Shown: positions 15,684 through 31,890 of the stretch, one piece after another
How positions within the stretch are numbered: the stretch's first letter is position 1
Layout: the number at the start of each line of letters is the position of its first letter
Source: a virus
Direction: 5' to 3' (one strand)
IMG/VR virus record: IMGVR_UViG_3300020408_000003
Location: 1 to 64,000 of that record
DNA: 64,000 nt
Translations under genes and position numbers: made by a program
Notes under the pieces: generated by a model
The model's input: the letters and a program-made list of their open reading frames with translations, nothing else
What the model was told of the DNA's origin: nothing
Database searches by the model: none

Positions 15684-15728
15684 AAACAGATTTCCTTTCG
15701 ATGTTTTGATTGTTGTTAAATAATTATA

Positions 15729-15736
15729 TATAAATA
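15729..15736 (+). promoter_or_regulatory. Late promoter for the plus-strand gene at 15809
   Basis: TATAAATA, then AGGAG RBS before the ATG. Confidence 0.65.
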
Positions 15737-15808
15737 CTATTGTCAATATATTATTCTCCCATTATGTTTATTTTTTGAAATGAATTAAAAAATTCATAGG
15801 AGAAATTT

Positions 15809-16905: not shown

Positions 16906-17168
16906 TTCTTTCTATCAGTTTCATTTTCATAGCCAAAAGTATATTGAGCAATTTGAAGCGGATCCATTTGTTCAGCTTCGATTTTGATACCATTATTAGT
17001 ACCCATCGGCCAATAATGTGGATCATAAGGTCGACCGTAGTAGCGATCTGCACTACCACGATCTAGAGGAGAACCGTGTTCAGCTTTTGCTCTTAAGTCA
17101 TGAAAACATTTTTTAGGATCAAACATGTCAGACTCCAATAATTCTCTTACTTCTGCTGGTATATTCAT
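16896..17168 (-). CDS. Hypothetical early protein
   Basis: HGSPLDRGSADRYYGR..PHY motif; in operon. Confidence 0.7.
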   Translation of the reverse strand: MNIPAEVRELLESDMFDPKKCFHDLRAKAEHGSPLDRGSADRYYGRPYDPHYWPMGTNNGIKIEAEQMDPLQIAQYTFGYENETDRKNWG

Positions 17169-17290
17169 TATATATTACTCCCCATATATTGTATTATTGA
17201 CCACCAAGTATATTGTGATCCTTGTCCAAAATCTATCCAACCTAAGGCAAAAGCCATAAGGACTAAACAACCTAATAAATCTCTAAGCAT
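17168..17290 (-). CDS. 40-aa membrane peptide (not in ORF track)
   Basis: MLRDLLGCLVLMAFALGWIDFGQGSQYTWWSIIQYMGSNI fills the gap with TAATG coupling to the next gene. Confidence 0.6.
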   Translation of the reverse strand: MLRDLLGCLVLMAFALGWIDFGQGSQYTWWSIIQYMGSNI

Positions 17291-17483
17291 GTCCTTGACC
17301 CGCAACTTCAAATACGAAATCATGTACATTGTGCTTATTTAAACCAGTCATTTCAAGGTTTGGAACTTTTAAAATTTTTTCAACTGCGGTGTCAATACTA
17401 ATATGACCATCACCTAACGTTGTAATAATATCGTCTACTGCGATTTCAGCTTGATTTTCTGCTAATCTTTTAGTAGCTGCCAT
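17283..17483 (-). CDS. Hypothetical early protein
   Basis: GAGGAG RBS directly after an early-type promoter. Confidence 0.7.
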   Translation of the reverse strand: MAATKRLAENQAEIAVDDIITTLGDGHISIDTAVEKILKVPNLEMTGLNKHNVHDFVFEVAGQGHA

Positions 17484-17511
17484 AATTTATCTCCTCATTA
17501 GTTATAGTATT

Positions 17512-17593
17512 AATATAATGCTTTTTTCAGAAATGTAAACCCCTAAAATCCACTTTTTTTAAATTAATTTAATATTGTTACATATATGTTACA
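17512..17593 (-). promoter_or_regulatory. Early-type promoter with A-tract and TGT-N12-ACA box
   Basis: GTTTACA-N16-TATATT; box TGTTACATATATGTTACA at 17576-17593. Confidence 0.7.
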
Positions 17594-17595
17594 TA

Positions 17596-17708
17596 TGGCT
17601 CTGGGAGAAGGATTCGAACCTTCACGCTAGATAAATAACTTTTTACACTAATTATTATCTAACAACCAATAAACAGTTGATCGCGTCTACCAATTCCGCC
17701 ACCCCAGA
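17596..17708 (-). tRNA. Non-canonical tRNA-Asn(GUU) with 41-nt variable arm
   Basis: Acceptor TCTGGGG/TCCCAGA-G-CCA; D arm GCGGAATTGGTAGACGC; anticodon stem ATCAA/TTGGT with loop CTGTTTA; T arm GAAGG-TTCGAAT-CCTTC. Confidence 0.85.
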
Positions 17709-17714
17709 ATAATT

Positions 17715-18605
17715 TTATGGTCTAGGATTACCGTATGATTGTGCAAATCCATGCATTACTCCACTTTTAGGATCAACAAATTCAGTAGTAAAATTTGCAT
17801 TTACTCTTTTGTGCGCTTTTATCATTCGAGTCACACCAATTCCACCACCAACTCTTGGAAAAAATTCAAACTTTAAAAATTCATCAAGTTCTTTTTGCAC
17901 TCTTTCTTTACCAAATAAATCATAAAGTAATTGAGCATACTGTCCATCTGATATAGTTTCAAAAGTATTTCTCATTTGATCTACGTCTGTGCTTCTTTCA
18001 GCAGATCCAATTGTTTCCATACCATTTAAAATAACGTCAATCTTTTTACTTGTTTTGCCGTCTTCATTTCTTGTCATATTCCAAAAAGGTGATGTATGTT
18101 CTGGAAATTTAGTAATCATGCCCCAATCAATTTGTTTTTCATGGTAATTATCAAGTTCATCTGTATTAAATTCTAAACACCATTCTTCATATGTTTTTTC
18201 ATCTAACTTAGGAAATCCCATATATTCACATAATTCGATTTCTAATTTTTTTAGATCATCAATGTCACCTGGCATTTCAAATTCAAACATTGGAAAGATT
18301 GTTTCATGTCTTCCTTGTATTGGATTTGGTTCTTGTCTATAACTTGTTGAAAGACAAAAATAACCTGGTGAATTCGGGCCACCGTGTGCTAGCAATTCGT
18401 GTTCTAACCACATTTGCCCAGTTTGGGGTAATGGCCAAACTTCTCCATCATAATTATAAATTCCTACTGTTTCAGGATCTTCACACGCTGCTAATATACT
18501 TAATCTATTTTGTGTATGTACTTCCCACCAACCTTTTTCCAAAAAAAAGGACCGTAAACGGCCCACTGTAAAACTATAATCTTGTGAATTAATCAACTTT
18601 GTCAT
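17715..18605 (-). CDS. Class IIb aminoacyl-tRNA synthetase catalytic domain only (AsnRS-like / archaeal-type asparagine synthetase-like)
   Basis: Motif 1 LRSFFLEKGWWEVHT, LPQTGQMWLE, motif 2 SYRQE..GRH..FPMFEFE, ETIGSAER, motif 3 GGGIGVTRM; no N-terminal OB fold. Confidence 0.85.
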   Translation of the reverse strand: MTKLINSQDYSFTVGRLRSFFLEKGWWEVHTQNRLSILAACEDPETVGIYNYDGEVWPLPQTGQMWLEHELLAHGGPNSPGYFCLSTSYRQEPNPIQGRHETIFPMFEFEMPGDIDDLKKLEIELCEYMGFPKLDEKTYEEWCLEFNTDELDNYHEKQIDWGMITKFPEHTSPFWNMTRNEDGKTSKKIDVILNGMETIGSAERSTDVDQMRNTFETISDGQYAQLLYDLFGKERVQKELDEFLKFEFFPRVGGGIGVTRMIKAHKRVNANFTTEFVDPKSGVMHGFAQSYGNPRP

Positions 18606-18639: not shown

Positions 18640-19317
18640 TTATTGTATGTTTGGAAATATTTCTGAAATAACTTTAGCACATTCAACAGCAACAAGTCTA
18701 TGTTCTTTCTGTGTTCCGTTAGCAGATCGTAATTCTATAAAATGAATCCAAGATCTTAAAGTTCCACTCATGTATAATCTACTTTTTGTTAATCCTTCTG
18801 GCAAAACAGCTCGAGCTTGTTCTTTTGCAATGCCATGTTCTACAGCCCATTTATAGACTTCTCTACATTGATTTATAACTCCTGTTTGTCGTCTTTGCCA
18901 TTCTGTAATCAACTCTTGCATTTTTTTATCATTCTGAATACTCGGATCATTTTCTATTTCAATACTATTTTGTCTGTTCTTTTCATCTTGCAATCTACAT
19001 TCACGAGTTGTAAAAGATAAATCGTCAGTAGGATCTGCATATCTTTGACTAAACTCTTGAAATGAAAATGATCTGTGTCTGAGTATTTGTCTGGCAATGT
19101 CTCGAGTTGTTTCTATCTCCAAGCAAGCGCTAACCATTTCGAAGGGCGACCAATGCTTGTTTTTGATAAGATAACGTAAGAGCTTTTCTGACGTTTTTTT
19201 GTTGGTTTGGTTCGATGGATTGGAAACACGGGCGCAATACGCAACGAGATCTTTGGCATCTTCTACTCCCTCCATTTTCTCAAATGGTTTACTGTAACTT
19301 ATAAGTTTTACGTTCAT
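18640..19317 (-). CDS. thyX: FAD-dependent thymidylate synthase
   Basis: HWSPFE, RQILRHRSFSFQEFSQRY, TQKEHR. Confidence 0.97.
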   Translation of the reverse strand: MNVKLISYSKPFEKMEGVEDAKDLVAYCARVSNPSNQTNKKTSEKLLRYLIKNKHWSPFEMVSACLEIETTRDIARQILRHRSFSFQEFSQRYADPTDDLSFTTRECRLQDEKNRQNSIEIENDPSIQNDKKMQELITEWQRRQTGVINQCREVYKWAVEHGIAKEQARAVLPEGLTKSRLYMSGTLRSWIHFIELRSANGTQKEHRLVAVECAKVISEIFPNIQ

Positions 19318-19562: not shown

Positions 19563-20213
19563 TTAACTTTCCTTTATCATTGTCCAAAAACCGGATCCTG
19601 TTTCAAAATCATGATGATCAAATTTACGTCTATGTTCTTTTAAAAAACCATCAATAGCTCTAACTGTTCCTTGATGACTAGGATGATAATCATCGCCGCA
19701 TATGTATTTTACATCTTTTAAAGCTCGTAATTCTAAAGTAACATTGAAGTAACTGTGTAATCCATCAATATAAACTAGATCCCAATTTGTATCTTTTTCT
19801 AATATTTCTAAACTTTTCTTTTGATGTATTATGTGTTTCATCATAAATCGAGTCGGATGTTGAGACATTACCCAATTAAAAATTTTTCTTTGAGCATTAT
19901 CGTTTTCTTCAACATACATCTTCATAAGATATTCAATCGTAGAATTTCCTTTATGTTTTTCAATCACTCCATTATAATGTTTTTGTTTTAAATAAGGTTC
20001 ATTCATGTCAAAAGTATCACACGTATGAAGTTCAACATCTTTTGGTAAATTATTTAATAATATCCAAGTAGAACATCCCCATGCACAACCGATTTCTAAG
20101 ACTCTTCCACCAGACTTAACATTACGAGCAAATTCACCAAGAGCTTCTAAATGTTTTGGATTATTAAATCCTGGAATATCTAAATAGTGTTTCACTGGTT
20201 TTGGTATAATCAT
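19563..20213 (-). CDS. Class I SAM-dependent methyltransferase (Methyltransf_24-like)
   Basis: VLEIGCAWGCST, YIDGLHSY, GDDY. Confidence 0.85.
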   Translation of the reverse strand: MIIPKPVKHYLDIPGFNNPKHLEALGEFARNVKSGGRVLEIGCAWGCSTWILLNNLPKDVELHTCDTFDMNEPYLKQKHYNGVIEKHKGNSTIEYLMKMYVEENDNAQRKIFNWVMSQHPTRFMMKHIIHQKKSLEILEKDTNWDLVYIDGLHSYFNVTLELRALKDVKYICGDDYHPSHQGTVRAIDGFLKEHRRKFDHHDFETGSGFWTMIKES

Positions 20214-22890: not shown

Positions 22891-23847
22891 CTAATTTTTC
22901 TTATAATAACTTTTATACCACTCAACAAAATCACGAATTCCATTTTCTATATTCGTCATTGGAACGTAGCCTAATTTTTTAATATTGGTTATATCAGCTA
23001 ATGTATGACGAATGTCAGCTTTGTGCATATCACTAAATTTTATTTTTGCCTTACGACCTAAATTTTCTTCAATTAATGATACAAACTTCATGAGCGGTAT
23101 ACTCTCTCCACTTCCAATATTAAATATTTCATGCGTATTAATTCTTTTCACTTTATCTATGAGTAATTGTACACCATTTACGATATCTTGTACATAGGTA
23201 AAATCGCGAGACATTTCTCCATGACCATAAATTTCAATAGGTTGATCTTCTATGATTTTATCAGTAAATTTGTAAAGAGCCATATCTGGTCGACCATGCG
23301 GTCCGTATACAGTAAAGAATCTAAATCCTATTGATGAGGATAAATTGCTGTGTTTAAATTGACATTCATTAACGTATTTTGACCAAGCATAAGGATTTTT
23401 ATGATGTTTAAATTCCATACTTTCTGTAAAGGGCGGTGTTTGACCAGCATAAACGCTTGAAGACGAAGCATACACAATTGGTATTTGTAATTTTTCTGCT
23501 AATTTAATTATGTGCTGTGTTCCAAGTATATTTGTGTTGATATAATTATCAGGATTTTCTAATGAATTTCTTACACCAGCATAAGCTGCTAAATGAACTA
23601 TAACATCAATATCTTCAAAATCTTTTTCATTTAAATCAATTATATCTTTATTGTGTACATTTATATTAAAGGTTTTTAAAAGATCTGCACGGTTTTCTTT
23701 TAGCCACGGATTGTAATACGAATTAAAATTATCGCAACCGGTTACATCATTTCCGTATGTTTTTAATTCCCTTGATCCTTTTTCCACAAAATTTGTCGCT
23801 AAATGATATCCTATAAACCCAGCGATACCAGTAATATAAATTTTCAT
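22891..23847 (-). CDS. NAD-dependent epimerase, UDP-glucuronate 4-epimerase-like
   Basis: ITGIAGFIG, HLAAYAGVRNS, YAWSK, RFFTVYGPHGRPDMA. Confidence 0.9.
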   Translation of the reverse strand: MKIYITGIAGFIGYHLATNFVEKGSRELKTYGNDVTGCDNFNSYYNPWLKENRADLLKTFNINVHNKDIIDLNEKDFEDIDVIVHLAAYAGVRNSLENPDNYINTNILGTQHIIKLAEKLQIPIVYASSSSVYAGQTPPFTESMEFKHHKNPYAWSKYVNECQFKHSNLSSSIGFRFFTVYGPHGRPDMALYKFTDKIIEDQPIEIYGHGEMSRDFTYVQDIVNGVQLLIDKVKRINTHEIFNIGSGESIPLMKFVSLIEENLGRKAKIKFSDMHKADIRHTLADITNIKKLGYVPMTNIENGIRDFVEWYKSYYKKN

Positions 23848-24650
23848 TCATAACTCACGTTTTGTTCTTTTTCTCTATCATCTTTTTCATATTGCAATCT
23901 ATATGTATTGTTTTTCTTGATAACGTATTCTAATATAGGCATACTATTTGTAAAATTAATCCATGCAGATAAATCTTTTGGAAAGCATGCTCCTCCAAAA
24001 CCTCGTTTTCCATCAAATCCTGGTACTCTTGTATGAGATTGGCCAATTCTAGGATCTGTACCAATAGCATTTATAATCTTACCAAAGTTTCCACCGAAAT
24101 TATCTACTGCATCGTATAATTCATTATACCATAAAACCTTTGTTGCTAAAAAACAATTGATTCCGTATTTTACAAAAGATGCGTCAGTCAATGACATATG
24201 AAACGTAGGACAGGGTTTACATATACTATACTCTTTATAAAATTGTTCTACCTTTTCTGTTGTTTCTTTTTGACCTCCAAAGACTTGAATTGAAGGATTG
24301 ATTATATCTTCGTTAGCATTCTTTTCTGTAAGAAATTCTGGATTATATACTATTTTTAAATTATTTAAATTTTTTAAAATATTAGGTGGTATTGTAGATT
24401 TTATAACTATAATTCCACATTTAGTATTTTTTAATTTATTTAAAATATTTTCTAATATGTATGTATTACAAGTACCGTTTTCACTCATAGGAGTTGGCAC
24501 ACAAACAAACGTTATATCAGAATTTATATCAGAATAATTTTCATCATTATTATATTTAGGATCTATAATTTGTTTTTTAACGTCGTATTGAAAAGCATAA
24601 TCAACTGCTTTACCAACAAATCCGTGACCAATGATCGTGATATTAAGCAT
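23844..24650 (-). CDS. UDP-glucose 6-dehydrogenase family protein (lacks C-terminal domain)
   Basis: IGHGFVG, CVPTP, IKSTIPP, NPEFL, GFGGACFPKD. Confidence 0.9.
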   Translation of the reverse strand: MLNITIIGHGFVGKAVDYAFQYDVKKQIIDPKYNNDENYSDINSDITFVCVPTPMSENGTCNTYILENILNKLKNTKCGIIVIKSTIPPNILKNLNNLKIVYNPEFLTEKNANEDIINPSIQVFGGQKETTEKVEQFYKEYSICKPCPTFHMSLTDASFVKYGINCFLATKVLWYNELYDAVDNFGGNFGKIINAIGTDPRIGQSHTRVPGFDGKRGFGGACFPKDLSAWINFTNSMPILEYVIKKNNTYRLQYEKDDREKEQNVSYE

Positions 24651-24656
24651 TGCGAA

Positions 24657-25682
24657 TTAAACCATAAATTCATTTAATGGATGATCTATCTTTCTTTGTA
24701 CACGTATTTCTTTCGGTCTTTTACCGGTATATAATCTTTTAAAACCTCCTGCATTTTTATATGGACCTGCTCTACAAACATTATCAAGAAATCGAATAAA
24801 AATACAAAGAGTATCTTCGTGTTGGGCTGGTGTTGTACCTAATTTTTCTGATAAAGCTATAAGACCTGTATCTGTAAAATCATCAAGAGCCATTCCCTTT
24901 GGTCGTTCAAAACATTCTAGCAATCCATCTCGAGCATTCGATCCACACATCAACATGCTATTTGGATCTACGTTATTCGGATGATAGTGAGCTATATCAG
25001 CAGATGCCATCGCAAATGGAAAGTTCCAACGTTTGATTCCTTCTTGTAAATGATATTCATTTAAAAAATTAGTAGTTGTACGAATTGAACGTGGAGTATT
25101 AGCTCTTACAAATTTAGAACATCTTTCAGCTTGATAAACTCCGTCAGTGCACATATACTCTGCGACGCTTTGACCTTTACGAGGATGCGGAGGAATATTA
25201 CCTACAGACGTATTCATAGATCTTTTTTGTCTTTTCCACTTTCGAGTAAGATCAATCATCTCATCTATCGTTTCATATTTTCCGAAATGAGTTACGATGC
25301 TATTTCTATATCCGTGATCGTAAGTACCGCTAAATCCACTACCAGTTGCTCTATGAAATATATAAGTCCATATCCAGGTTTTTAAAGTCCAACTTTCTGT
25401 TTTATATTTTAAAATACGCTCTTTAACTTGATCTGGTCTTTTATGAAACTGAGGACTTTTTTCTTTGTTTTGCAAATCTTCAAGAACATAATTAAATCCT
25501 TCGGTCCAACGAGAAACAGAATTATACACGCCGTTTTGCATTAATGGATCATTTACTATTTTATTAGCTTCTTCTCCTAACGGATCGGTTGTGCCTATAT
25601 GACAATTGTCTTCTAACCATTTTGCTCTTGGCCAGAAATATTCAACATATGTTTTATAATTTTCTCTTTGTACTAAATTCAT
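24657..25682 (-). CDS. aGPT-pyrophosphorylase-like (HhH-glycosylase fold) DNA base transferase
   Basis: DPLM...N.VSR, FAMASADI...GSNARDGL and EDTLCIFIRF resemble the family patterns DPIL..N..R, GPGA.RGL and E..LCEF.KY; gene context. Confidence 0.6.
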   Translation of the reverse strand: MNLVQRENYKTYVEYFWPRAKWLEDNCHIGTTDPLGEEANKIVNDPLMQNGVYNSVSRWTEGFNYVLEDLQNKEKSPQFHKRPDQVKERILKYKTESWTLKTWIWTYIFHRATGSGFSGTYDHGYRNSIVTHFGKYETIDEMIDLTRKWKRQKRSMNTSVGNIPPHPRKGQSVAEYMCTDGVYQAERCSKFVRANTPRSIRTTTNFLNEYHLQEGIKRWNFPFAMASADIAHYHPNNVDPNSMLMCGSNARDGLLECFERPKGMALDDFTDTGLIALSEKLGTTPAQHEDTLCIFIRFLDNVCRAGPYKNAGGFKRLYTGKRPKEIRVQRKIDHPLNEFMV

Positions 25683-25690
25683 CGTAAATC

Positions 25691-26656
25691 CTATATTGTA
25701 AGTGGATTGCTGCCGAAATCGTTTCTACGATAATTGGGTGGAGCGATATGTACACTTGATCCTTTTTCCATAAAATTCAATGCGTATTTTTCTGGATCCA
25801 TATCATACCAAAAACGAGGTGGCATAACAATATTTCCTTTTGATTCGTCTGTAAGAATACTTATAAAGTCATCAGTAATACGTTTTCTTTCAGATTGAGA
25901 ACCAAAAAATGGTGTACCTTTGTAATATCCAGTTTTAGGAAGTTTACGCTTTTCATATTCTACTGGCACGGGTGCAGCAAATTTAGGATCATCAGTACAC
26001 TCTTTAGCTTGCTTTATGTATTCTTTAATCATTGCTTTTAGATCAACGTTATTGTGTCGAAGTAAATGATGTCGAATGTCTATGGAACCAAAACAAAATG
26101 TAATATTACCTTCTATTGGTTTATCTCGAAATAAATTTTTTAAACCAGTTTTTAAAGCTCCGTGTAAAGTAGCTCCATCTCTACGGTATATCTTATCTGT
26201 TTTATCGCTAAAAGCTAAAGTATGAGAATCGCCTACAGTAATTCCTTTCATATTAAGATCTTCTTGTTTTAAGATAGGAATATTTTTTAATAAAGCTTCA
26301 AGCTTATCGCACCATTGCTCAGTTACTTTATGATACGTACTAGAATTTCCAATTCTTTTTCTAAAATTATCGGTCCATATCTTTATATCCCATTCGAGTG
26401 ATACAATCTTTTTACACATAAAGAGAGTATTAATGCGATCGTAAATATCTCTATCGATACCACCAAAAAGATTAATTGATCCAGTAAAGTTAACTCCATG
26501 ATTAATGTATACTATATCTGCATTTTGAATATTTTTTGTGCACGTATGATCTATCTTCGCATTTAGTTGATCTGCCCATATTTGAGCATAACCAAGATTA
26601 TGAGACTTCGGGGCTTTCGGTATATTCGACAGAGGATTGGTAATTACCAAAGACAT
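25691..26656 (-). CDS. Two-domain hypothetical protein with SGNH-like C-terminal domain (likely start 26656)
   Basis: VGDSH, FGSIDIRHH, SVHI motifs. Confidence 0.55.
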   Translation of the reverse strand: MSLVITNPLSNIPKAPKSHNLGYAQIWADQLNAKIDHTCTKNIQNADIVYINHGVNFTGSINLFGGIDRDIYDRINTLFMCKKIVSLEWDIKIWTDNFRKRIGNSSTYHKVTEQWCDKLEALLKNIPILKQEDLNMKGITVGDSHTLAFSDKTDKIYRRDGATLHGALKTGLKNLFRDKPIEGNITFCFGSIDIRHHLLRHNNVDLKAMIKEYIKQAKECTDDPKFAAPVPVEYEKRKLPKTGYYKGTPFFGSQSERKRITDDFISILTDESKGNIVMPPRFWYDMDPEKYALNFMEKGSSVHIAPPNYRRNDFGSNPLTI

Positions 26657-26888
26657 ATTCAACTCCTGCTTCATTATATATTTTTTCAGATTCAGACCAT
26701 CTTCGTGTCCAAATATCGGGATATCTGTACTTAGGCATTATAACACGTTTTATACCCATTTGTACAATGTTTTTTGTATATTCAGGCGAAGGCGGAAGAC
26801 CGTAAATATATAAATCTGTGCCAATCATGACTTCGCCTTTATCGGTTTCTTTGGCTAAATCTATGTATTTCATATTGTATGAACTCAT
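26598..26888 (-). CDS. Degenerate dCMP deaminase paralog
   Basis: LYIYGLPPSPEYTKNIVQMGIKRV aligns to MYITGLPTCHRCAKAIIQVGIKRV of the neighbouring deaminase. Confidence 0.65.
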   Translation of the reverse strand: MSSYNMKYIDLAKETDKGEVMIGTDLYIYGLPPSPEYTKNIVQMGIKRVIMPKYRYPDIWTRRWSESEKIYNEAGVEYVFGNYQSSVEYTESPEVS

Positions 26889-27355
26889 ACTTTTCTCCCG
26901 AGTTTTACATCTAAAAATTTTTTTAGTTCGTCTAACATTTTTTGCTCGTATATTCTACCAGCTTCACCATTAAAATTGCGATTACGCGGTGAGGGATGAT
27001 CAATTTTGTAATTATCTATAGCATATTTTTTACACACTCTAGCTACAAGATGACCAAGCGCTATGATAACTTTTTTTCCTTTTACTGCTTTTTGTAAAGC
27101 GGATTCATCAACTTGTTTAATATCTTTACAGTTCATGATATGCGGTATTACATTATGAAAATCCCATTCTTCTAAACCAAGTCTAACAGTCCAATCTTCT
27201 AATCGAGCAAAAGTTCCGTGTGGCTGTATTTTACCTTCTTTAAATTTTTTTCTAAAGGTATCAGAATTTCTAGAAGAAGGAGATTCTCCTAATATTAATA
27301 CATCATTAGACAATTTGTGATTACTTAAAAAATCTAAAACATTTGATAATTTCAT
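26885..27355 (-). CDS. Uracil-DNA glycosylase superfamily protein
   Basis: VLILGESPS, IIALG..A, HPSPRN. Confidence 0.75.
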   Translation of the reverse strand: MKLSNVLDFLSNHKLSNDVLILGESPSSRNSDTFRKKFKEGKIQPHGTFARLEDWTVRLGLEEWDFHNVIPHIMNCKDIKQVDESALQKAVKGKKVIIALGHLVARVCKKYAIDNYKIDHPSPRNRNFNGEAGRIYEQKMLDELKKFLDVKLGRKV

Positions 27356-27816
27356 TGATCTGGCTCCACTATTTGATAATATATTTTTGCTTCTTTAAAT
27401 AAACTTTCTGTTAATTTCCAAGAATCAATCCATCTTTCTGGTATTTTTGCTCTTATAAAAACTCTTTTTATTCCAACTTGTATTATGGCTTTAGCACATC
27501 GATGACATGTTGGAAGACCAGTTATATACATTGCGGCTCCTTCTAATGGTACTCCACTATTCGTAGCATTGTATATAGCATTTTCTTCAGCATGAACTAT
27601 ATAGTCATATTTAAGAATTCGGTTACTATATTTATCAGGACAGTCTTTTATACCACGAGGAAACCCATTATATCCTTGAGTTAATATTTGTCCTTTTTTA
27701 CCAACTACTATAGCACCGATCTTTGTCGATGGATCTTTAGACCAAGACGAAATCTGATCTGCAATATCTAAATATCTTTTATCCCAATCATTTAACAAGG
27801 TGAAAATGCCTTTCAT
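27352..27816 (-). CDS. cd: dCMP deaminase
   Basis: SKDPSTKIGA, GYNGFPRG, HAEENA, PTCHRC. Confidence 0.95.
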   Translation of the reverse strand: MKGIFTLLNDWDKRYLDIADQISSWSKDPSTKIGAIVVGKKGQILTQGYNGFPRGIKDCPDKYSNRILKYDYIVHAEENAIYNATNSGVPLEGAAMYITGLPTCHRCAKAIIQVGIKRVFIRAKIPERWIDSWKLTESLFKEAKIYYQIVEPDQ

Positions 27817-28483
27817 ATACGTGAAGATTTTGTACTTGCCAAATCATATGACCTAATGATATTTTATCACCAGTATCGTATTCTTCAAACTTGCAATCAT
27901 TCCAATCTTTAACTAATCTATTCATGATTTCAAACTGCCAAGCGTAATCATTTTTATAACCAAAGACTACATCATTAGAACGCATTTGAACTACAGCATG
28001 TAAGATATTATCTCGTATGTAATACGTAACGCTATTAGTACAAATAAAATCGTTTTTACCGTTTTCATTATATTCCATCCAAATTGAAGGGCGATTGTAA
28101 ACCATACAAGCACGACGGCTATCTGGGTTTCTTATCAGTTCATCTAATACTTGACCGTATTGGTTATGGTATTTATCATTGAAAATTAGATGACCGTAGT
28201 TAGAATTAATTTCTCCATGTTTATTTGCTGAATATTCCCAACATTTAGGTGGATCTTCAAATTCTCTTATGTCATTAATATTAGTCGACTGACTATCATA
28301 CCATTTTATCTCGCTGTCGATATATTCTTGACTTGGTGTTCCGAATATAGATGGTTCATCTGCTATGAATGATGCACCGATTAATTCAATCGTTGACATA
28401 CCACTTCTATCAATAGTAAATGCTTTATCGTATAATTCATCGATAAAATGTTTACGTATGTCGTTTACAGTCATCATTCGCAT
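27788..28483 (-). CDS. gp42: dCMP hydroxymethylase-like thymidylate synthase homolog
   Basis: INSNYG, DFICTN, MRSNDVVFGYKNDYAWQ (Asp at the dCMP-specificity position), LHVYERHF. Confidence 0.9.
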   Translation of the reverse strand: MRMMTVNDIRKHFIDELYDKAFTIDRSGMSTIELIGASFIADEPSIFGTPSQEYIDSEIKWYDSQSTNINDIREFEDPPKCWEYSANKHGEINSNYGHLIFNDKYHNQYGQVLDELIRNPDSRRACMVYNRPSIWMEYNENGKNDFICTNSVTYYIRDNILHAVVQMRSNDVVFGYKNDYAWQFEIMNRLVKDWNDCKFEEYDTGDKISLGHMIWQVQNLHVYERHFHLVK

Positions 28484-28883
28484 CTTGTACTCTCTTTCTC
28501 AAATCTGATGTTGAAAATTTGTGGTCTCTTTTATTAAAGTGTAATTGTATACCACGCTTTTTACATTCATCCTTTCCAGTAAAATCTTTATCACGGTATT
28601 CTTCACCTAAAATTCTTATATCGATCGGATACATGTTTATTATATCACATAATTCTGTTTCTGTACAATAAATAATTACTTCATCAACGTATTTTATAGC
28701 GCATAATTGTGCTTGTCTTTCTACAATAGATTGAACTGGAGGATTTTTGTTCTCTCTATCAAGAGAAGGATCTACTTGTAAGCCAACTATCAAATGATCA
28801 CAAACTGATTTTGCTTCACGTAACATCGCTACATGACCAGCATGTAATAAATCAAAAGTGCTGCAAGTAAATCCGACTTTCAT
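28452..28883 (-). CDS. TagD-like (glycerol-3-phosphate) cytidylyltransferase
   Basis: STFDLLHAGH, KYVDEV, RDHKFSTS. Confidence 0.9.
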   Translation of the reverse strand: MKVGFTCSTFDLLHAGHVAMLREAKSVCDHLIVGLQVDPSLDRENKNPPVQSIVERQAQLCAIKYVDEVIIYCTETELCDIINMYPIDIRILGEEYRDKDFTGKDECKKRGIQLHFNKRDHKFSTSDLRKRVQDANDDCKRHT

Positions 28884-29053
28884 TCTACTGCATCTTCAAT
28901 ACAAACAAAACTCGTACCAAGTTCTGCTTCTTCTTTATGCAATATTGCATTCTTCCAACATTCATATTCACCAGTATAATAATCAAGTGATTCGCCTTCG
29001 ACTATTCCTTGAGCGTTAATCACAACAGCGACAAGTATATAACCTAAGATCAT
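28880..29053 (-). CDS. 57-aa two-Cys protein (not in ORF track)
   Basis: MILGYILVAVVINAQG...YTGEYECW...FVCIE; GAGGA RBS; ATGA overlaps. Confidence 0.65.
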   Translation of the reverse strand: MILGYILVAVVINAQGIVEGESLDYYTGEYECWKNAILHKEEAELGTSFVCIEDAVE

Positions 29054-29412
29054 GATTCCTCGTCTGATTTAATTACTTTACTTTTTTTCTTTCGATTTAA
29101 AAAATCATGATCTGCGTTTTGACCTTGCATTTTACCGCGACAATATTCTACGATGAATGAACCGTAGTTAATCATATCTTTTGCAGAATCTTCGATTGAT
29201 TCGAAGTTAGGATCATAGTCAGGATCGTTTTGCATTGCTTCGATAACTGATCGCATACGAAGCATTTTAGCATGAATAATATCTAAAAGCGTTGCTACAC
29301 CTTGTGGATAATAATCTGCTTGTTGTATGCGCGAATTAGGATTTTGATAATCATTACCTTTTTTAGCTTGTAGTTCTGCGCATTCTTGTAAAACTTTAAT
29401 TGATTCTTTCAT
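29050..29412 (-). CDS. Nucleotide-modification-associated domain (Nmad1-like, all-alpha NTP-PPase fold)
   Basis: KKGNDY...K..R...ESIEDSAKDMINY. Confidence 0.75.
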   Translation of the reverse strand: MKESIKVLQECAELQAKKGNDYQNPNSRIQQADYYPQGVATLLDIIHAKMLRMRSVIEAMQNDPDYDPNFESIEDSAKDMINYGSFIVEYCRGKMQGQNADHDFLNRKKKSKVIKSDEES

Positions 29413-29429
29413 TATACACCTCCGAATAT

Positions 29430-29458
29430 ATTATACACTATTAAATTTTTTTTGTACA
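29430..29458 (-). promoter_or_regulatory. Promoter heading the DNA-modification operon
   Basis: TGTACA-N17-TATAAT, then GGAGG. Confidence 0.75.
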
Positions 29459-29464: not shown

Positions 29465-29968
29465 TTAAGCAACTTCTTCTAGAGATGGGGGTGGAGGATA
29501 AGGAAAACGCATCTCTCCATCTATATTTTGAAGAAGTTCAAGAGCACGATTAGCTTCTACATAACCACAGATTTCGTAGTTAGCTTGTTTATTTGCTTCA
29601 AGTGGAGTCCAACGATTTCCATCAGCCCATTTCCAAACAACAATGTATTTGACTGTGCCGTCGTTGATGCGGTCTTGTGCATATGGACTTAGCTTAACGC
29701 CTTTCTTAGCGAACTGCTTATATTCCATTTCACCAAAATCTTTGTGCATAGTATCGTATTGAAAACCCCAATAAACTTCTTGCTTAGAGTCAACTTGACA
29801 CTGATGATACTCGGGAAACTCTGCTTCCCAACGTCTACGTTCACTCATAAGATCGAGATCGCGTTTACCGCTTTGATAACTTTTTTCTGCACGCTCACGT
29901 AAACGTTTTAAAATATAATTGTCTGGCGTAGCAGATACAATTTTATTAATTTCAATAAATTTATTCAT
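29465..29968 (-). CDS. Hypothetical protein, possible PD-(D/E)xK nuclease
   Basis: YD...MEYK pattern. Confidence 0.45.
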   Translation of the reverse strand: MNKFIEINKIVSATPDNYILKRLRERAEKSYQSGKRDLDLMSERRRWEAEFPEYHQCQVDSKQEVYWGFQYDTMHKDFGEMEYKQFAKKGVKLSPYAQDRINDGTVKYIVVWKWADGNRWTPLEANKQANYEICGYVEANRALELLQNIDGEMRFPYPPPPSLEEVA

Positions 29969-30540: not shown

Positions 30541-31459
30541 CATTACGATAGACATATTCTAATGCTCTATCTGCTTCTTTTTTAATCGGACGTTTTTGAT
30601 ACCAATTACCGTTATCGATATCAAACTCACGACATAGATTTGTGATTTCATCCACGTTTATAGGATATTTAGACTTAATAGCATTACCAGCTATAGCAAC
30701 CATAATTTGATACATCTTATGATACCAACCAGTTTTAGTAATCGTCTTATATTCATTTGCTAATTGCATAGGCCAAAATGGACAATCGCGATAAGAAGAC
30801 CAAGAAAAATCATTATCAAGTTTATTTTTCTTATATTCTAAAACTTCTTTCTGCAATGCTTCAGGTAATCTATCGAAAAAACTATTAAGCGTAGCTTTTT
30901 CTGGCATAGGATGTTTTGCTATTAAAGCATCGGGATCAAGAACATCACCATTGTTACTGAATATAAAATTAAAAGCACGATCATATTTCGCAGGGATATA
31001 ATACATTCTCGATAAGTCTTTAGTTTGCTTATCGCCAAGTTCACCGAGTTCGGATTGGAGTGCAAACCAGAATTTTCTAATTCTATCGTTCGGGACATTG
31101 TTTCTAACTGGGAACACGAGTCGGAACTTTGGAGCATTAGTCTTAGAGCTTGCAGTACTATAACACACAAAACGCAAATGACTAAAGCGAGTAAGTAGCT
31201 CATCTTTTAAATCTCCTTTAAATTCAAAATCATCAACATCAACACAACACCATTGAGACCATTCGATAACGTTATCGTTTGCTCGTGTAGTATCTTTTTT
31301 ATACACAGCAGGAGATATTAGAACAGCGTCTTTCTTTGATTTAAGTTTTCTTTTAGATAAATCATATAATAATTTTTCGAAAGAATCAAAATCTTGATGT
31401 TCTAATATCTTATCAGTTTTGTTATCGAATATATTTTTAAATATTGTGTATTTAATCAT
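30536..31459 (-). CDS. Primase-polymerase (AEP-like) protein
   Basis: RANDNV, CVDVDD, YSTAS...KFRLVFP, D.QTKDLSRMYYIP. Confidence 0.75.
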   Translation of the reverse strand: MIKYTIFKNIFDNKTDKILEHQDFDSFEKLLYDLSKRKLKSKKDAVLISPAVYKKDTTRANDNVIEWSQWCCVDVDDFEFKGDLKDELLTRFSHLRFVCYSTASSKTNAPKFRLVFPVRNNVPNDRIRKFWFALQSELGELGDKQTKDLSRMYYIPAKYDRAFNFIFSNNGDVLDPDALIAKHPMPEKATLNSFFDRLPEALQKEVLEYKKNKLDNDFSWSSYRDCPFWPMQLANEYKTITKTGWYHKMYQIMVAIAGNAIKSKYPINVDEITNLCREFDIDNGNWYQKRPIKKEADRALEYVYRNV

Positions 31460-31890
31460 TATCTTTTCTTAATACCATCATTTATATTTCCATGATTCTT
31501 CTTATGGCTAGGACCTTTCCATCCATCTGGTTTAATTAAATCAGGTAATCCTAAAGGATTTGGTCTTGACGGTTTAACACCGGGTTCTTTTGACATATTA
31601 GCTTTATGTACGCTATTCCACGCTTTATACGCATCAACGCCAAAAGCATCTAAAGTACCGATGGCAACAACGCAAAGATCGATTAATCCATCAACTATCT
31701 CTTCAGGATTTTTATCTGTAAAAGCAGCTTTACGTGTTTCATCTAGTTCTTCTTTTAAAAAGTTAAGACGAAATTCTAAAAACTTTTCAAGCTTATGCAA
31801 TTCGCCTTTATCTTTTGTTTTTTTAAACCAATCATGTACACCAAACTTAGCATGCATGTTATTAATATCTTTTACCCAATTTTTTGTCAT
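31459..31890 (-). CDS. MazG-like NTP pyrophosphohydrolase (candidate dCTPase/dUTPase)
   Basis: EELDE..EIVDGLIDL..VHKANMSK..KPDGW. Confidence 0.85.
   Translation of the reverse strand: MTKNWVKDINNMHAKFGVHDWFKKTKDKGELHKLEKFLEFRLNFLKEELDETRKAAFTDKNPEEIVDGLIDLCVVAIGTLDAFGVDAYKAWNSVHKANMSKEPGVKPSRPNPLGLPDLIKPDGWKGPSHKKNHGNINDGIKKR

What the first reader, a model, noticed from the sequence alone, without database searches (positions are those of the whole stretch)
22891..29458. Cytosine hypermodification locus predicting an unusual (possibly uronic-acid) DNA base
One operon contains an Nmad1-like protein, a TagD-like cytidylyltransferase, a gp42-like enzyme with the dCMP-specifying Asp (GYKND), dCMP deaminase, a UDG-fold protein, an SGNH-like protein, an aGPT-pyrophosphorylase-like protein, UDP-glucose dehydrogenase and a UDP-glucuronate-4-epimerase-like enzyme. 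ThyX elsewhere covers dTMP synthesis and a MazG-like enzyme sits beside the polymerase. No T4-type alpha/beta-glucosyltransferase and no obvious 5hmdU kinase is visible. Established: aGPT-type enzymes act on activated 5hmdU in phiW-14, SP10 and ViI. Inference: here a related fold works with modified cytosine and an activated sugar acid or CDP-polyol donor.
Basis: partly seen in the sequence, partly recalled or inferred. Interest (0 to 1): 0.8.

Follow-up and report, generated by a model that had tools for sequence, protein, structure and literature searches.

The report
Phage hydroxymethylcytosine decoration island, sugar-acid variant
An uncultured marine T4-like phage makes T4's hydroxymethylcytosine, but where T4 has its glucose-adding enzyme it carries an esterase-fold enzyme, a relative of the enzymes that graft amino acids onto thymine, and a small sugar-acid pathway, so its DNA probably holds a decorated cytosine that has not yet been identified chemically.

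Summary
All nine genes are at the stated coordinates on the minus strand. Support is strong for the gp42 orthologue (50% identical to T4 gp42, specificity Asp and catalytic Cys kept), dCMP deaminase, cytidylyltransferase, truncated UDP-glucose dehydrogenase and the UDP-glucuronate-4-epimerase-like SDR. The SGNH-like and aGPT-Pplase/AADT-like proteins are supported by fold only. The Nmad1 and UDG calls are weak.

The island sits where T4 has 42 and beta-gt. The SGNH-like and AADT-like proteins are fused in six other protein clusters, so they work together. Of 80 related loci, 75 also carry a PLP enzyme. This window and four close relatives lack it and have a divergent AADT-like gene followed by Ugd and the epimerase.

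The sugar module is separately mobile. In sister phages it travels with DNA glycosyltransferases (TAGT, AGT), and these never co-occur with the AADT cassette.

Best reading (0.55): hmC is made and then decorated by a kinase-less SGNH/AADT-like pair, possibly with a uronic-acid-derived group. Uronic-acid cytosine made by glycosyltransferases is already in a 2023 preprint. The scan's earlier AI notes describe the kinase-less cassette on other genomes; the PLP-less sugar variant is what this window adds. There are no chemical data.

The parts
31459..31890 (-). MazG-like (PRA-PH) nucleotide pyrophosphohydrolase beside DNA polymerase. Presumed dCTP-pool clearing (inferred).
   Evidence: PF01503 4.8e-10 and phrog_671 2e-23. 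Present in 41 of 80 related loci. PRA-PH co-occurs with Asp-type TS in cytosine-modified contigs in PMC8670742.
29050..29412 (-). Nmad1/DUF1599-like all-alpha protein. The call is weak.
   Evidence: PF07659 E 0.007, below cut-off. phrog_18404 1.8e-13 and phrog_1485 5.9e-13. Present in 28 of 80 related loci. No solved relative.
28880..29053 (-). 57-aa ORF of unknown function, overlapping both neighbours by 4 bases.
   Evidence: ORF list. Not scanned against any family library; no homologue found among the 80 related loci.
28452..28883 (-). Cytidylyltransferase-like nucleotidyltransferase (HxGH type). Substrate unknown.
   Evidence: PF01467 1.3e-13. rfaE domain II 2.1e-22 and TagD 1.8e-17, both under cut-off. 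Solved relatives: ethanolamine-phosphate cytidylyltransferase 4e-23, TagD 1.3e-12. HAGH seen in the translation. Present in 21 of 80 AADT loci and 37 of 80 mini-Ugd loci.
27788..28483 (-). gp42-type dCMP hydroxymethylase.
   Evidence: BLASTP to T4 gp42: 50% identity over 227 residues, E 8e-81. Asp of GYKND aligns with the Asp of T4 GFRND, and the Cys of FICTN with that of T4 FMCTN. PF00303 1.6e-12. Asp and Cys in 50 of 50 sequences.
27352..27816 (-). dCMP deaminase.
   Evidence: PF00383 2.3e-20 and phrog_174 3e-42. Present in 55 of 80 related loci.
26885..27355 (-). UDG-superfamily-like protein. The call is weak.
   Evidence: PF03167 E 0.0028, below cut-off. No PHROG, NCBIfam or solved relative. 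GESPS and HPSPRN in the translation resemble family-4 UDG motifs as I recall them. Present in 10 of 80 related loci.
26598..26888 (-). 96-aa catalytically dead copy of the C-terminal half of the dCMP deaminase.
   Evidence: In related loci this query hits the deaminase gene itself (p96 scored in 54 of 80 loci, at the deaminase ORF's coordinates). The translation has PPSPEY where the deaminase has PTCHRC, and no HAE. Kept at E 5e-59 in L093.
25691..26656 (-). Two-domain protein: N-terminal Rossmann-like domain (about residues 1-135) plus SGNH-fold domain with Ser144 and His303. Proposed activator or tailoring partner of the AADT-like enzyme.
   Evidence: phrog_13881 5.5e-83. AF2 pLDDT 89.8. Foldseek PDB finds GDSL esterases and the SsfX3 acyltransferase at E 2e-4 to 1e-3. 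GDSH, ID[IVL]RHH and the S-x-H motif are found in 58, 58 and 57 of 58 relatives. G142, D143, S144, H145, S301 and H303 are invariant in alignment A2. Fused to the AADT-like domain in 6 of 6 long representatives.
24657..25682 (-). aGPT-Pplase/AADT-fold protein of the divergent PLP-less lineage, with Glu289 and Cys293. Proposed group transferase acting on hmC in DNA.
   Evidence: AF2 pLDDT 89.9, pTM 0.89. Foldseek BFVD: AADT-domain proteins at E 1.6e-14 (TM 0.79), then SP10 and PhiW-14 HMUDK-helical proteins and an endonuclease III. 93 representatives. EDxxC motif. No Pfam match.
23844..24650 (-). Truncated UDP-glucose 6-dehydrogenase (mini-Ugd). NAD-binding and central domains with the catalytic Cys are kept; there is no UDP-binding C-terminal domain.
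   Evidence: PF03721 and PF00984, each about 1e-14. TIGR03026 2.9e-38. The A6 profile aligns to residues 37-329 of 424 in 3phl and 1-298 of 402 in 1dli. A CF.KD-type motif is in 28 of 30 relatives, most of them 268-301 aa long.
22891..23847 (-). Extended SDR, UDP-glucuronate 4-epimerase-like.
   Evidence: PF01370 1.8e-44. Solved relatives: 5u4q 1.9e-61, 6zl6 2.9e-41, MoeE5 (6kv9) 9.4e-35. MoeE5 is a UDP-glucuronate 4-epimerase according to PMC7984243. The best NCBIfam hit, HldD 3.5e-41, is under its cut-off.
18640..19317 (-). ThyX, flavin-dependent thymidylate synthase (dTMP supply).
   Evidence: PF02511 1.1e-46, over cut-off.

Best explanation
This is the DNA-base modification island of an uncultured marine T4-like phage. 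It lies between DNA polymerase/primase and uvsX, where T4 has 42 and beta-gt.

Step 1 (shown by close homology): a gp42 orthologue converts dCMP to 5-hydroxymethyl-dCMP. dCMP deaminase and ThyX supply dTMP. The MazG-like and Nmad1-like proteins presumably deplete dCTP (inferred).

Step 2 (inferred): after replication, hmC in DNA is altered by a two-enzyme cassette with no kinase.
- One enzyme is an SGNH-fold protein with invariant Ser144 and His303.
- The other is an aGPT-Pplase/AADT-fold protein with a conserved Glu289-x3-Cys293.
- The two are one polypeptide in other phages, so they act together.
- By analogy with thymidine hypermodification, I propose that the SGNH enzyme takes the place of the 5-hmU DNA kinase. 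It would turn the 5-CH2OH into a leaving group, for example by O-acylation.
- The AADT-like Cys would then attack C6, an exocyclic methylene would form, and a nucleophile would be captured at the 5-methylene carbon.

Step 3 (shown by comparison): this window belongs to a sublineage that lost the PLP enzyme found in 75 of 80 relatives and has a divergent AADT-like protein. The appended group is therefore probably not a decarboxylated amino acid.

Step 4 (inferred, weakest): the mini-Ugd, the UDP-glucuronate-4-epimerase-like SDR and the cytidylyltransferase-like enzyme form a nucleotide-sugar(-acid) supply module for DNA decoration. In sister phages this module accompanies DNA glycosyltransferases. 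Here no such transferase is visible. Its product either goes to the SGNH/AADT-like pair or to a transferase in the roughly 60% of the genome that is not on the contig.
For: gp42:
- 50% identity to T4 gp42, E 8e-81, with Asp and Cys kept.
- Asp and Cys in 50 of 50 TS-like proteins.
- T4 gene order 43-imm-42-bgt-uvsX-40-41 against window order pol, MazG, primase..., 42, cd..., uvsX, p114, 41.

AADT fold:
- Foldseek E 1.6e-14, TM 0.79, to AADT-domain proteins. Lower in the list are SP10 and PhiW-14 HMUDK-helical proteins and an endonuclease III.
- Atlas look-alike clusters carry PF18723 in 10-36% of members and PF18724 in 12%.
- The E-x3-C motif is found in 79 of 80 relatives. Clade-2 AADTs have E243-x3-C247 at a similar distance from the C-terminus. 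Both residues are essential in M6 gp51 and ViI gp247 (PMC8989533, passages).

Coupling of the two enzymes:
- 6 of 6 representatives of 600 aa or more are SGNH-like plus AADT-like fusions.
- The order SGNH-PLP-AADT is seen in 33 of 33 colinear loci. It mirrors the 5-HMUDK-PLP-AADT triple fusion described in PMC8989533.
- The PALP-like gene is in 75 of 80 loci. It matched Pfam PALP in 5 of 5 tested, at E 5e-7 to 1e-3.

Link to phages with gp42 but no glucosyltransferase:
- The only cultured carriers of the SGNH-like domain are 38 Aeromonas, 3 Tenacibaculum and 2 Stenotrophomonas phage records.
- In 44RR2.8t it is the N-terminus of a 795-aa protein whose C-terminus weakly hits HMUDK_hel (E 0.0036).
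- Phages 44RR, 31 and 25 have genes 42 and 56 but no glucosyltransferase (PMC2993671).

PLP-less variant:
- No PALP-like gene in the 81.6-kb contig (tblastn E 1.3 or worse).
- The order SGNH, AADT-like, Ugd, epimerase is kept in L093-L095. L096 starts within the AADT-like gene and shows AADT-like, Ugd, epimerase.

Sugar module and DNA:
- Among the 80 mini-Ugd loci kept, a GT-like gene (TAGT, AGT or GT4) is present in 38 of the 72 without the AADT-like gene, in 23 of the 28 of those with full flanks, and in 0 of the 8 with the AADT-like gene.
- 0 of the 84 AADT loci have one.
- Hypergeometric P is about 0.004.
- An epimerase-dependent HexA-cytosine and a cytidylyltransferase-dependent heptose-cytosine have been shown experimentally (preprint 10.1101/2023.12.21.572611).
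Against: - There are no chemical data of any kind.
- The AADT-like protein matches neither PF18724 nor PF18723. Only 1 of 55 family members reaches PF18724, at E 0.001.
- Profile-profile comparison with eight clade-2 AADTs is negative (probability 0.5%). The equivalence of the Glu/Cys motifs is therefore not shown.
- The window's clade has Cys-Ile where 79 relatives have Cys-Asp.
- The SGNH block III Asn is an invariant Ile. No acyl donor is identified, so the activation role is pure analogy.
- The sugar module is not an obligate partner. Ugd is in 29, the epimerase in 21 and the cytidylyltransferase in 21 of the 80 AADT loci.
- 72 of 80 mini-Ugd loci lack the AADT-like gene, and 17 of 32 full-flank loci lack a TS-like gene.
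- PMC7029224 reads rfaE and UDP-glucose dehydrogenase in pelagimyophages as LPS genes.
- The whole strand is tightly packed, and promoter-like sites are not enriched (68 found, 69.8 expected). Adjacency alone is therefore weak evidence.
- The mini-Ugd lacks the domain that binds UDP.
- The contig is about 40% of the genome.
- The loci compared are related, so the exclusivity statistic overstates independence.
Confidence: 0.55

Rival explanations
1. The mini-Ugd, epimerase and cytidylyltransferase are auxiliary metabolic genes that remodel host surface polysaccharide (LPS or capsule). They merely sit in a plastic spot of the replication module. Only gp42 and the SGNH/AADT-like pair concern DNA.
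For: PMC7029224 interprets rfaE and UDP-glucose 6-dehydrogenase in pelagimyophages this way (passage). The module occurs without the AADT-like gene in 72 of 80 loci, and without a TS-like gene in 17 of 32 full-flank loci. Ugd plus a UDP-GlcA 4-epimerase is a classic polysaccharide-precursor pair (recalled).
Against: In 23 of 28 full-flank loci without the AADT-like gene, the module lies beside genes whose tested examples match DNA-glycosyltransferase families (AGT 3.3e-32, TAGT down to 5e-48) or GT4, often with a C5 DNA methylase. It always lies inside the DNA replication module. Epimerase-GT and cytidylyltransferase-GT sets have been shown to act on DNA.
Confidence: 0.2
2. Two independent decorations of hmC. 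The sugar module feeds an ordinary DNA glycosyltransferase encoded in the part of the genome not on the contig. The SGNH/AADT-like pair adds something else to other hmC residues, as T4 splits hmC between alpha-gt and beta-gt.
For: The contig is about 40% complete. In sister phages the module goes with TAGT or AGT glycosyltransferases. T4 itself uses two transferases (PMC2993671).
Against: No GT-like gene lies within 10 kb of any of the 84 AADT loci, nor in the 81.6-kb contig. In sister phages the GT lies next to the module.
Confidence: 0.15
3. The SGNH/AADT-like pair does not decorate DNA bases. It could be a DNA-glycosylase-like repair or anti-defence factor, or it could act on free nucleotides or on a non-nucleic-acid substrate. 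In that case the hmC stays bare.
For: The fold is that of helix-hairpin-helix glycosylases (endonuclease III appears). There is no Pfam membership. M6 gp55, a paralogous aGPT-Pplase, was dispensable in vitro (PMC8989533). SGNH enzymes are mostly hydrolases.
Against: The pair is strictly linked to Asp-type gp42 and, in 75 of 80 loci, to a PLP enzyme, as in thymidine hypermodification clusters. It occupies the beta-gt slot. A conserved Glu-x3-Cys is present.
Confidence: 0.1

Closest known systems
Thymidine hypermodification pathways of phages M6, ViI, PaMx11, PhiW-14 and SP10 (dUMP hydroxymethylase, 5-hmU DNA kinase, clade-2 aGPT-Pplase = amino acid:DNA transferase, PLP decarboxylase; PMC8989533, passages read)
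   Same: A TS-family hydroxymethylase makes the 5-hydroxymethyl pyrimidine. An aGPT-Pplase-fold enzyme has a conserved Glu-x3-Cys. A fold-II PLP enzyme lies next to it in 75 of 80 relatives. The components fuse into one polypeptide. The genes sit among replication genes.
   Different: The base is cytosine (Asp-type gp42). No P-loop 5-HMUDK is present; an SGNH-fold two-domain protein stands in its place. The transferase-like protein is too far from clade 2 for HMM or profile-profile detection. This window also lacks the PLP enzyme and adds sugar-acid genes.
T4 gene 42 / beta-glucosyltransferase (hmC synthesis and glucosylation)
   Same: gp42 is orthologous (50% identity). The genome position between polymerase and uvsX is the same. 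dCMP deaminase is present.
   Different: There is no alpha-gt, beta-gt or other recognisable GT. Similarity of the SGNH protein's N-terminal domain to beta-gt is limited to an 11-residue motif (hhalign probability 1.6%).
Metagenomic phage 5hmC glycosylation gene clusters (GT with sugar epimerase; GT with HAD/APH enzyme and cytidylyltransferase) that give HexA-, Kdo-, heptose- and other glycosyl-methylcytosines (preprint 10.1101/2023.12.21.572611, passages read)
   Same: Phage-encoded nucleotide-sugar tailoring genes (epimerase, cytidylyltransferase) dedicated to DNA decoration. A uronic-acid cytosine is one product. Sister loci of this window carry TAGT- or AGT-like glycosyltransferases next to the same mini-Ugd/epimerase module.
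   Different: The window has no glycosyltransferase. Its 5hmC comes from gp42, not from a methyltransferase plus TET. It also has a truncated Ugd.
5hmC carbamoyltransferase clusters found by MetaGPA (PMC8670742, passages read)
   Same: The same pool-side network: Asp177-type TS, PRA-PH (MazG-like) and dCMP deaminase next to a non-sugar hmC-modifying enzyme.
   Different: The transferase there is a TobZ-like carbamoyltransferase, not an SGNH/aGPT-Pplase pair.
Aeromonas phage 44RR2.8t ORF233c (795 aa) and its homologues in phages 31, 25, phiAS4, Aes508 and IME13
   Same: The N-terminal 330 residues are homologous to the window's SGNH-like protein (31% identity, E 1e-32; Foldseek TM 0.87). The C-terminus weakly matches HMUDK_hel. 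These phages have gene 42 but no glucosyltransferases.
   Different: It is a single fused protein in a different genome position, beside a sodium:solute symporter gene. Its C-terminal part is not detectably related to the window's AADT-like family. Its function is untested.

Membership tests
T4 gp42 dCMP hydroxymethylase (thymidylate synthase superfamily) | TS fold and close sequence similarity to characterised gp42 | tested here: met
   PF00303 1.6e-12. 50% identity to T4 gp42 over 227 residues, E 8e-81.
T4 gp42 dCMP hydroxymethylase (thymidylate synthase superfamily) | Asp at the position of E. coli ThyA Asn177 (T4 Asp179), and the catalytic Cys (T4 Cys148) | tested here: met
   GYKND aligns with T4 GFRND and FICTN with FMCTN. 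Both residues are present in 50 of 50 sequences. The role of these residues is taken from PMC8670742.
T4 gp42 dCMP hydroxymethylase (thymidylate synthase superfamily) | Product is hydroxymethyl-dCMP rather than methyl-dCMP or hydroxy-dCMP | not testable with these tools
   Inferred from 50% identity to gp42, against about 26% to the RB69 5-hydroxy-dCMP synthase locus.
aGPT-Pplase / amino acid:DNA transferase (Pfam ADDT PF18724, HMUDK_hel PF18723) | Match to the family HMM | tested here: not met
   No Pfam hit for the protein. PF18724 and PF18723 find nothing in the contig at E up to 10 and up to 1 respectively. 1 of 55 family members hits PF18724, at E 0.00099.
aGPT-Pplase / amino acid:DNA transferase (Pfam ADDT PF18724, HMUDK_hel PF18723) | All-alpha helix-hairpin-helix glycosylase-like fold shared with AADT and HMUDK helical domains | tested here: met
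   Foldseek BFVD: E 1.6e-14 with TM 0.79, and E 3.6e-6, to AADT-domain proteins. SP10 and PhiW-14 HMUDK-helical proteins at E 0.016-0.022. Endonuclease III at E 0.18.
aGPT-Pplase / amino acid:DNA transferase (Pfam ADDT PF18724, HMUDK_hel PF18723) | Essential Cys with a nearby essential Glu (clade 2) | tested here: inconclusive
   The family has E289-x3-C293. Clade 2 has E243-x3-C247. hhalign does not align the two motifs (probability 0.5%).
aGPT-Pplase / amino acid:DNA transferase (Pfam ADDT PF18724, HMUDK_hel PF18723) | Works with a P-loop 5-hmU DNA kinase | tested here: not met
   No HMUDK_hel match in the contig. No kinase family among the 58 window ORFs scanned. An SGNH-like partner is present instead.
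aGPT-Pplase / amino acid:DNA transferase (Pfam ADDT PF18724, HMUDK_hel PF18723) | Neighbouring PLP-dependent enzyme | tested here: not met
   Absent from the 81.6-kb contig and from L093-L096. Present in 75 of 80 more distant relatives.
SGNH/GDSL hydrolase-acyltransferase | SGNH fold | tested here: met
   Foldseek PDB finds GDSL esterases and the SsfX3 acyltransferase at E 2e-4 to 1e-3, TM relative to target about 0.5. No Pfam hit.
SGNH/GDSL hydrolase-acyltransferase | Block I GDS Ser, block III Asn, block V His | tested here: inconclusive
   GDSH (Ser144) and H303 are invariant. The block III position reads G-S/N-I-D, with an invariant Ile where Asn is expected. The block definitions are recalled.
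UDP-glucose 6-dehydrogenase | NAD-binding domain, central domain with catalytic Cys, and C-terminal UDP-binding domain | tested here: not met
   The first two are present (PF03721 and PF00984; GGACFPKD). The C-terminal domain is absent: the profile ends at residue 298-329 of solved enzymes that are 402-424 residues long.
UDP-glucuronate 4-epimerase (extended SDR) | Full-length similarity to characterised enzymes | tested here: met
   MoeE5 (6kv9) 9.4e-35 over residues 3-312. 6zl6 2.9e-41. 5u4q 1.9e-61. MoeE5's function is taken from PMC7984243. The functions of 6zl6 and 5u4q are recalled or as deposited.
UDP-glucuronate 4-epimerase (extended SDR) | Carboxylate-binding residues that separate epimerases from decarboxylases | not tested
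   The residues are described in PMC7984243. I did not map them.
DNA glycosyltransferases (T4 AGT PF11440, TAGT PF20691, T4 BGT) | Any match in the contig | tested here: not met
   PF11440 and PF20691 give no match at E up to 1. phmmer with 7 GT queries from sister loci finds nothing in the contig. BGT against the SGNH family: 11 columns aligned, probability 1.6%.
UDG superfamily | Match to PF03167 | tested here: inconclusive
   E 0.0028, 18.2 bits, against a cut-off of 24.3. No solved relative.
Nmad1 (DUF1599) | Match to PF07659 | tested here: inconclusive
   E 0.007, 17.1 bits, against a cut-off of 25. PHROG hits at about 1e-13.

The most novel reading that the evidence does not exclude
In this PLP-less lineage the divergent AADT-like enzyme attaches a sugar acid (glucuronate or galacturonate, or its nucleotide form) or a CDP-activated alcohol directly to the 5-methylene carbon of cytosine. 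The chemistry would be thiol-addition with an exocyclic-methylene intermediate, not a Leloir glycosyltransferase reaction. The SGNH enzyme would activate hmC by O-acylation in place of the DNA kinase. That would be a new way of activating a DNA base and a new class of sugar-base linkage.
Probability: 0.15. Interest if true: 0.9.

Novelty: new variant of a known kind. Interest (0 to 1): 0.72.

Why it matters
Post-replicative hypermodification by aGPT-Pplase-type enzymes is known only for thymine and depends on a DNA kinase.

Here the same fold is tied to T4-type hydroxymethylcytosine, with an esterase-fold partner in place of the kinase. The family is abundant: 377 IMG/VR stretches and 93 clusters at 50% identity.

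If the chemistry is confirmed it would:
- add a new class of cytosine modification;
- add a new way of activating a DNA base;
- explain how gp42-positive, glucosyltransferase-negative phages such as Aeromonas phages 44RR, 31 and 25 finish their DNA;
- give new enzymes for labelling 5hmC.

The window's own contribution is a natural experiment. One lineage dropped the PLP enzyme, remodelled the transferase and kept a sugar-acid module that otherwise travels with DNA glycosyltransferases.

I found no paper linking aGPT-Pplase/AADT with dCMP hydroxymethylase or 5hmC pathways. The library lacks most subscription journals, and Iyer et al. 2013 could not be read.

Tried and rejected
- Megablast of the island against 50,697 phage records found no match. 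tblastn of the AADT-like protein found no match either.
- Sequence search of the AADT-like family against the PDB gave nothing meaningful.
- hhalign of the family against M6 gp51 (probability 0.8%), M6 gp55 (probability 10%, 35 columns) and 44RR ORF233c (probability 0.1%) gave no usable relation. The profile of eight clade-2 AADTs was also negative.
hhalign aligned 11 columns at probability 1.6%. No BGT appeared among the 50 Foldseek rows shown for the PDB or for BFVD; two glycosyltransferase rows had probability 0.35 and TM 0.21-0.26. I neither adopt nor exclude this idea.
- Pfam on seven long or fused forms gave nothing except one weak MGDG_synth hit. Their N-termini were identified as SGNH-like only with my own profile.
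- Promoter and terminator scan showed no enrichment (68 against 69.8, and 5 against 5.0). One candidate promoter lies in the gap upstream of 29412.
- Complex prediction on the SGNH-like and AADT-like chains gave no verdict (score 0.00). This counts neither for nor against binding.
- I first considered the sugar genes obligate partners of the cassette. reject that.
- A literature search for modified DNA in Aeromonas T4-like phages turned up nothing specific.
- Supplementary files of papers were not opened. Those of PMC8989533 and of the 2023 preprint may list contigs of this family.
- Pfam summaries of 38 other window ORFs list families but not which ORF holds them.

Full report
WHAT THE WINDOW IS. 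The window is the first 64 kb of an 81.6-kb viral contig that CheckV rates as about 40% complete. Almost all genes are on the minus strand. The DNA polymerase is 54% identical to Phage C48C1 and 46-48% identical to T4-like cyanophages. UvsX, a gp41-type helicase, primase, clamp and clamp loader, UvsW, UvsY and RegA families are present. It is an uncultured marine T4-like myovirus. No phage record matches the island at the DNA level.

THE OBSERVATION.
- The strongest call is 27788-28483. It is 50% identical to T4 gp42 (E 8e-81). The specificity Asp (GYKND against T4 GFRND) and the catalytic Cys are aligned.
- dCMP deaminase, the cytidylyltransferase-like protein, the Ugd-like protein and the SDR are clear Pfam and NCBIfam matches.
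- The Nmad1 and UDG calls are below the Pfam cut-offs (E 0.007 and 0.0028).
- The two proteins without any Pfam match were modelled from alignments of relatives, with pLDDT 89.9 and 89.8.
- 24657-25682 has the aGPT-Pplase/AADT fold. Foldseek gives E 1.6e-14 and TM 0.79 to proteins annotated as amino acid:DNA transferase domain. Lower hits are the SP10 and PhiW-14 HMUDK helical proteins and an endonuclease III.
- 25691-26656 has an SGNH-fold C-terminal domain (GDSL esterases and the SsfX3 acyltransferase, E 2e-4 to 1e-3) behind an N-terminal Rossmann-like domain of about 135 residues.
- ThyX is at 18640-19317 and MazG at 31459-31890.
- No AGT, TAGT or HMUDK_hel match exists in the contig.

POSITION. 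T4 has the order 43, imm.1, imm, 42, beta-gt, segA, uvsX, 40, 41. The window has polymerase, MazG, primase, small ORFs, Nmad1-like, cytidylyltransferase, 42, cd, UDG-like, a dead half-deaminase, SGNH-like, AADT-like, Ugd, epimerase, uvsX, a 114-aa ORF, 41. The unusual genes therefore fill the slot of beta-gt.

THE CASSETTE IS WIDESPREAD AND TIED TO CYTOSINE.
- The AADT-like protein has 93 representative relatives at E 0.001 or better in a library clustered at 50% identity. It has 377 confirmed stretches in IMG/VR.
- In the 80 loci kept, I found homologues of the TS-like gene in 51, deaminase in 55, SGNH-like in 64, MazG in 41, Nmad1-like in 28, Ugd in 29, epimerase in 21, cytidylyltransferase in 21 and UDG-like in 10. 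Many loci are short, so these are lower bounds.
- All 50 TS-like proteins of 200 aa or more (window included) have the Asp and the Cys.
- MetaGPA found the same network (Asp177-type TS, PRA-PH, dCMP deaminase) on contigs with modified cytosine (PMC8670742, passages).

THE SGNH-LIKE AND AADT-LIKE PROTEINS WORK TOGETHER. Six of the 93 representatives are 639-790 aa long. All six have an N-terminal SGNH-like part (phmmer E 6e-19 to 1e-37; hhalign probability 100% for the two tested) and a C-terminal AADT-like part. GDSH, ID[IVL]RHH and the S-x-H motif are found in 58, 58 and 57 of 58 SGNH-like relatives. An E-x3-C-D motif is found in 79 of 80 AADT-like relatives.

A THIRD CORE GENE IS MISSING HERE.
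- Clustering the ORFs of the 80 loci showed a gene of about 300 aa in 75 of them. In 33 of 33 loci where the TS-to-UvsX interval contains the AADT-like gene, the interval also holds the SGNH-like gene and this gene, usually in the order SGNH, this gene, AADT-like.
- Five of five tested copies match Pfam PALP (fold-II PLP enzymes) at E 5e-7 to 1e-3, below the cut-off.
- This repeats the logic of thymidine hypermodification clusters. M6 gp52 is a PLP decarboxylase next to the glycine:DNA transferase gp51. A 5-HMUDK-PLP-AADT triple fusion has also been reported (PMC8989533, passages).
- The window has no such gene anywhere on its contig (tblastn E 1.3 or worse).
- Four IMG/VR contigs carry AADT-like proteins 82-93% identical to the window's. 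None has the PLP gene. L093-L095 show SGNH, AADT-like, Ugd, epimerase. L096 begins within the AADT-like gene and shows AADT-like, Ugd, epimerase.
- The window's AADT-like protein is only 30-40% identical to those of the other 80 loci. It differs at otherwise fixed positions: GFSG for GASF, and Cys-Ile for Cys-Asp.
- Loss of the PLP enzyme thus goes with a remodelled transferase.

HOW FAR THE AADT ANALOGY GOES.
- Membership in Pfam ADDT or HMUDK_hel fails by sequence.
- A profile of eight clade-2 AADTs (M6 gp51, PhiW-14 gp109 and others) does not align with the family.
- Both families have Glu-x3-Cys about 50 residues from the C-terminus. In clade 2 these residues are essential. I could not show that they are equivalent.
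- The relation is therefore at the level of fold, not family.
- No kinase is visible. The SGNH protein as the activating enzyme is an inference from its position, the fusions, and the fact that SGNH enzymes form acyl-enzyme intermediates.

CULTURED RELATIVES. The SGNH-like protein matches 43 phage records: 38 Aeromonas, 3 Tenacibaculum and 2 Stenotrophomonas. In 44RR2.8t it is the first 330 residues of the 795-aa ORF233c. The C-terminus of that protein weakly matches HMUDK_hel (E 0.0036). Petrov et al. state that 44RR, 31 and 25 have genes 42 and 56 but no glucosyltransferase genes (PMC2993671, passages). This fits a role as the glucosyltransferase substitute.

THE SUGAR GENES.
- The Ugd-like protein keeps GxGxxG and GGACFPKD but stops where solved enzymes begin their UDP-binding domain. 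Most of the 30 relatives are 268-301 aa long.
- The SDR's best solved relatives are 5u4q (1.9e-61), 6zl6 (2.9e-41) and MoeE5 (9.4e-35). MoeE5 is a UDP-glucuronate 4-epimerase (PMC7984243). That 6zl6 is the Bacillus cereus enzyme is my recollection.
- The nucleotidyltransferase is nearest to ethanolamine-phosphate cytidylyltransferase, TagD and RfaE domain II, without reaching any equivalog cut-off.

To test whether these genes belong to the cassette, I searched IMG/VR with a mini-Ugd alignment.
- Only 8 of the 80 have the AADT-like gene. 56 have the epimerase, 37 the cytidylyltransferase and 22 a TS-like gene.
- Of the 32 loci with at least 4 kb on both sides, 28 lack the AADT-like gene and 17 lack a TS-like gene. 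So the module moves on its own.
- Its neighbours in those loci matter. Pfam finds T4-type DNA alpha-glucosyltransferase (3.3e-32), TET-associated glycosyltransferase (down to 5e-48), GT4, C5 DNA methylase and phosphomannomutase.
- Using these as queries, a GT-like gene is present in 38 of 72 mini-Ugd loci without the AADT-like gene (23 of 28 with full flanks). It is present in 0 of 8 with the AADT-like gene, in 0 of the 84 AADT loci, and nowhere in the window's contig.
- The hypergeometric chance of that exclusivity is about 0.004. The loci are related, so this overstates the case. GT families unlike my seven queries would also be missed.

A preprint shows that phage epimerase-GT pairs make hexuronic-acid cytosine, and that a cytidylyltransferase-containing set makes heptosyl cytosine (10.1101/2023.12.21.572611, passages). 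Dedicated nucleotide-sugar synthesis for DNA is also described for RB69 and DLP3 (PMC13326640, passages). I therefore read the module as a donor-supply unit for DNA decoration, not for LPS as proposed for pelagimyophages (PMC7029224, passage). I read the SGNH/AADT-like cassette as an alternative to the glycosyltransferase. Whether the cassette really uses the module's product is open.

VERDICT.
- hmC synthesis is close to certain.
- A post-replicative, kinase-less decoration by the SGNH/AADT-like pair is likely.
- A uronic-acid or other sugar-derived adduct in this PLP-less lineage is possible but unproven.
- Uronic-acid cytosine made by glycosyltransferases is already reported in a preprint.
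- Earlier AI notes of this scan describe the kinase-less cassette on other genomes (86 notes held all my search words, in at least 66 genomes; the eight shown describe it). I reached the same reading from my own calls. What this window adds is the PLP-less, sugar-linked variant and the exclusivity with DNA glycosyltransferases.

Noticed in passing
window 26598-26888 (-): A 96-aa ORF that is a catalytically dead copy of the C-terminal half of the neighbouring dCMP deaminase. It has PPSPEY where the deaminase has PTCHRC, and no HAE. It overlaps both neighbours and is kept in L093 (E 5e-59).
   Followed up: partly
window 23844-24650 (-) and IMG/VR loci L097-L172: The UDP-glucose dehydrogenase lacks its whole UDP-binding C-terminal domain. 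How it binds its substrate is unexplained.
   Followed up: partly
L099, L103, L104, L109, L114, L119 (IMG/VR contigs): Sister phages carry TET-associated-type glycosyltransferases plus the mini-Ugd/epimerase module between polymerase and uvsX, without any TS-like hydroxymethylase or C5 methylase in the interval. The base they glycosylate is unclear.
   Followed up: no
L055 3741-5679; L094 2575-3348; L023 9402-10004: Some relatives add a KdsA-like DAHP_synth_1 enzyme (1e-51), an ATP-dependent PEP carboxykinase (5e-91), a second cytidylyltransferase or a class II aldolase (4e-25) to the island. This hints at ulosonic-acid-type donors.
   Followed up: no
window 19563-20213 (-): A Methyltransf_24-type SAM methyltransferase (4.9e-8) overlaps the end of the gp41 helicase gene by 4 bases, directly downstream of the island's transcription direction.
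   Followed up: no
window 945-18605: The Pfam summary of 19 ORFs shows three radical SAM proteins (one ORF also matches B12-binding), a PnrA-like substrate-binding protein, DUF6267, DUF932 and an SDR. Which ORF holds which family was not resolved. An AsnRS-like gene is at 17715-18605.
   Followed up: no
L001 (Aeromonas phage 44RR2.8t) 4408-8388: The 795-aa SGNH-like fusion protein ORF233c lies directly after a sodium:solute symporter homologue, far from gene 42.
   Followed up: no
window 29465-29968 (-) and 28880-29053 (-): A 167-aa ORF and a 57-aa ORF frame the Nmad1-like gene. The 167-aa ORF has no Pfam or PHROG match but recurs in 13 of 80 related loci. The 57-aa ORF was not scanned against family libraries and has no homologue in the 80 related loci.
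   Followed up: no
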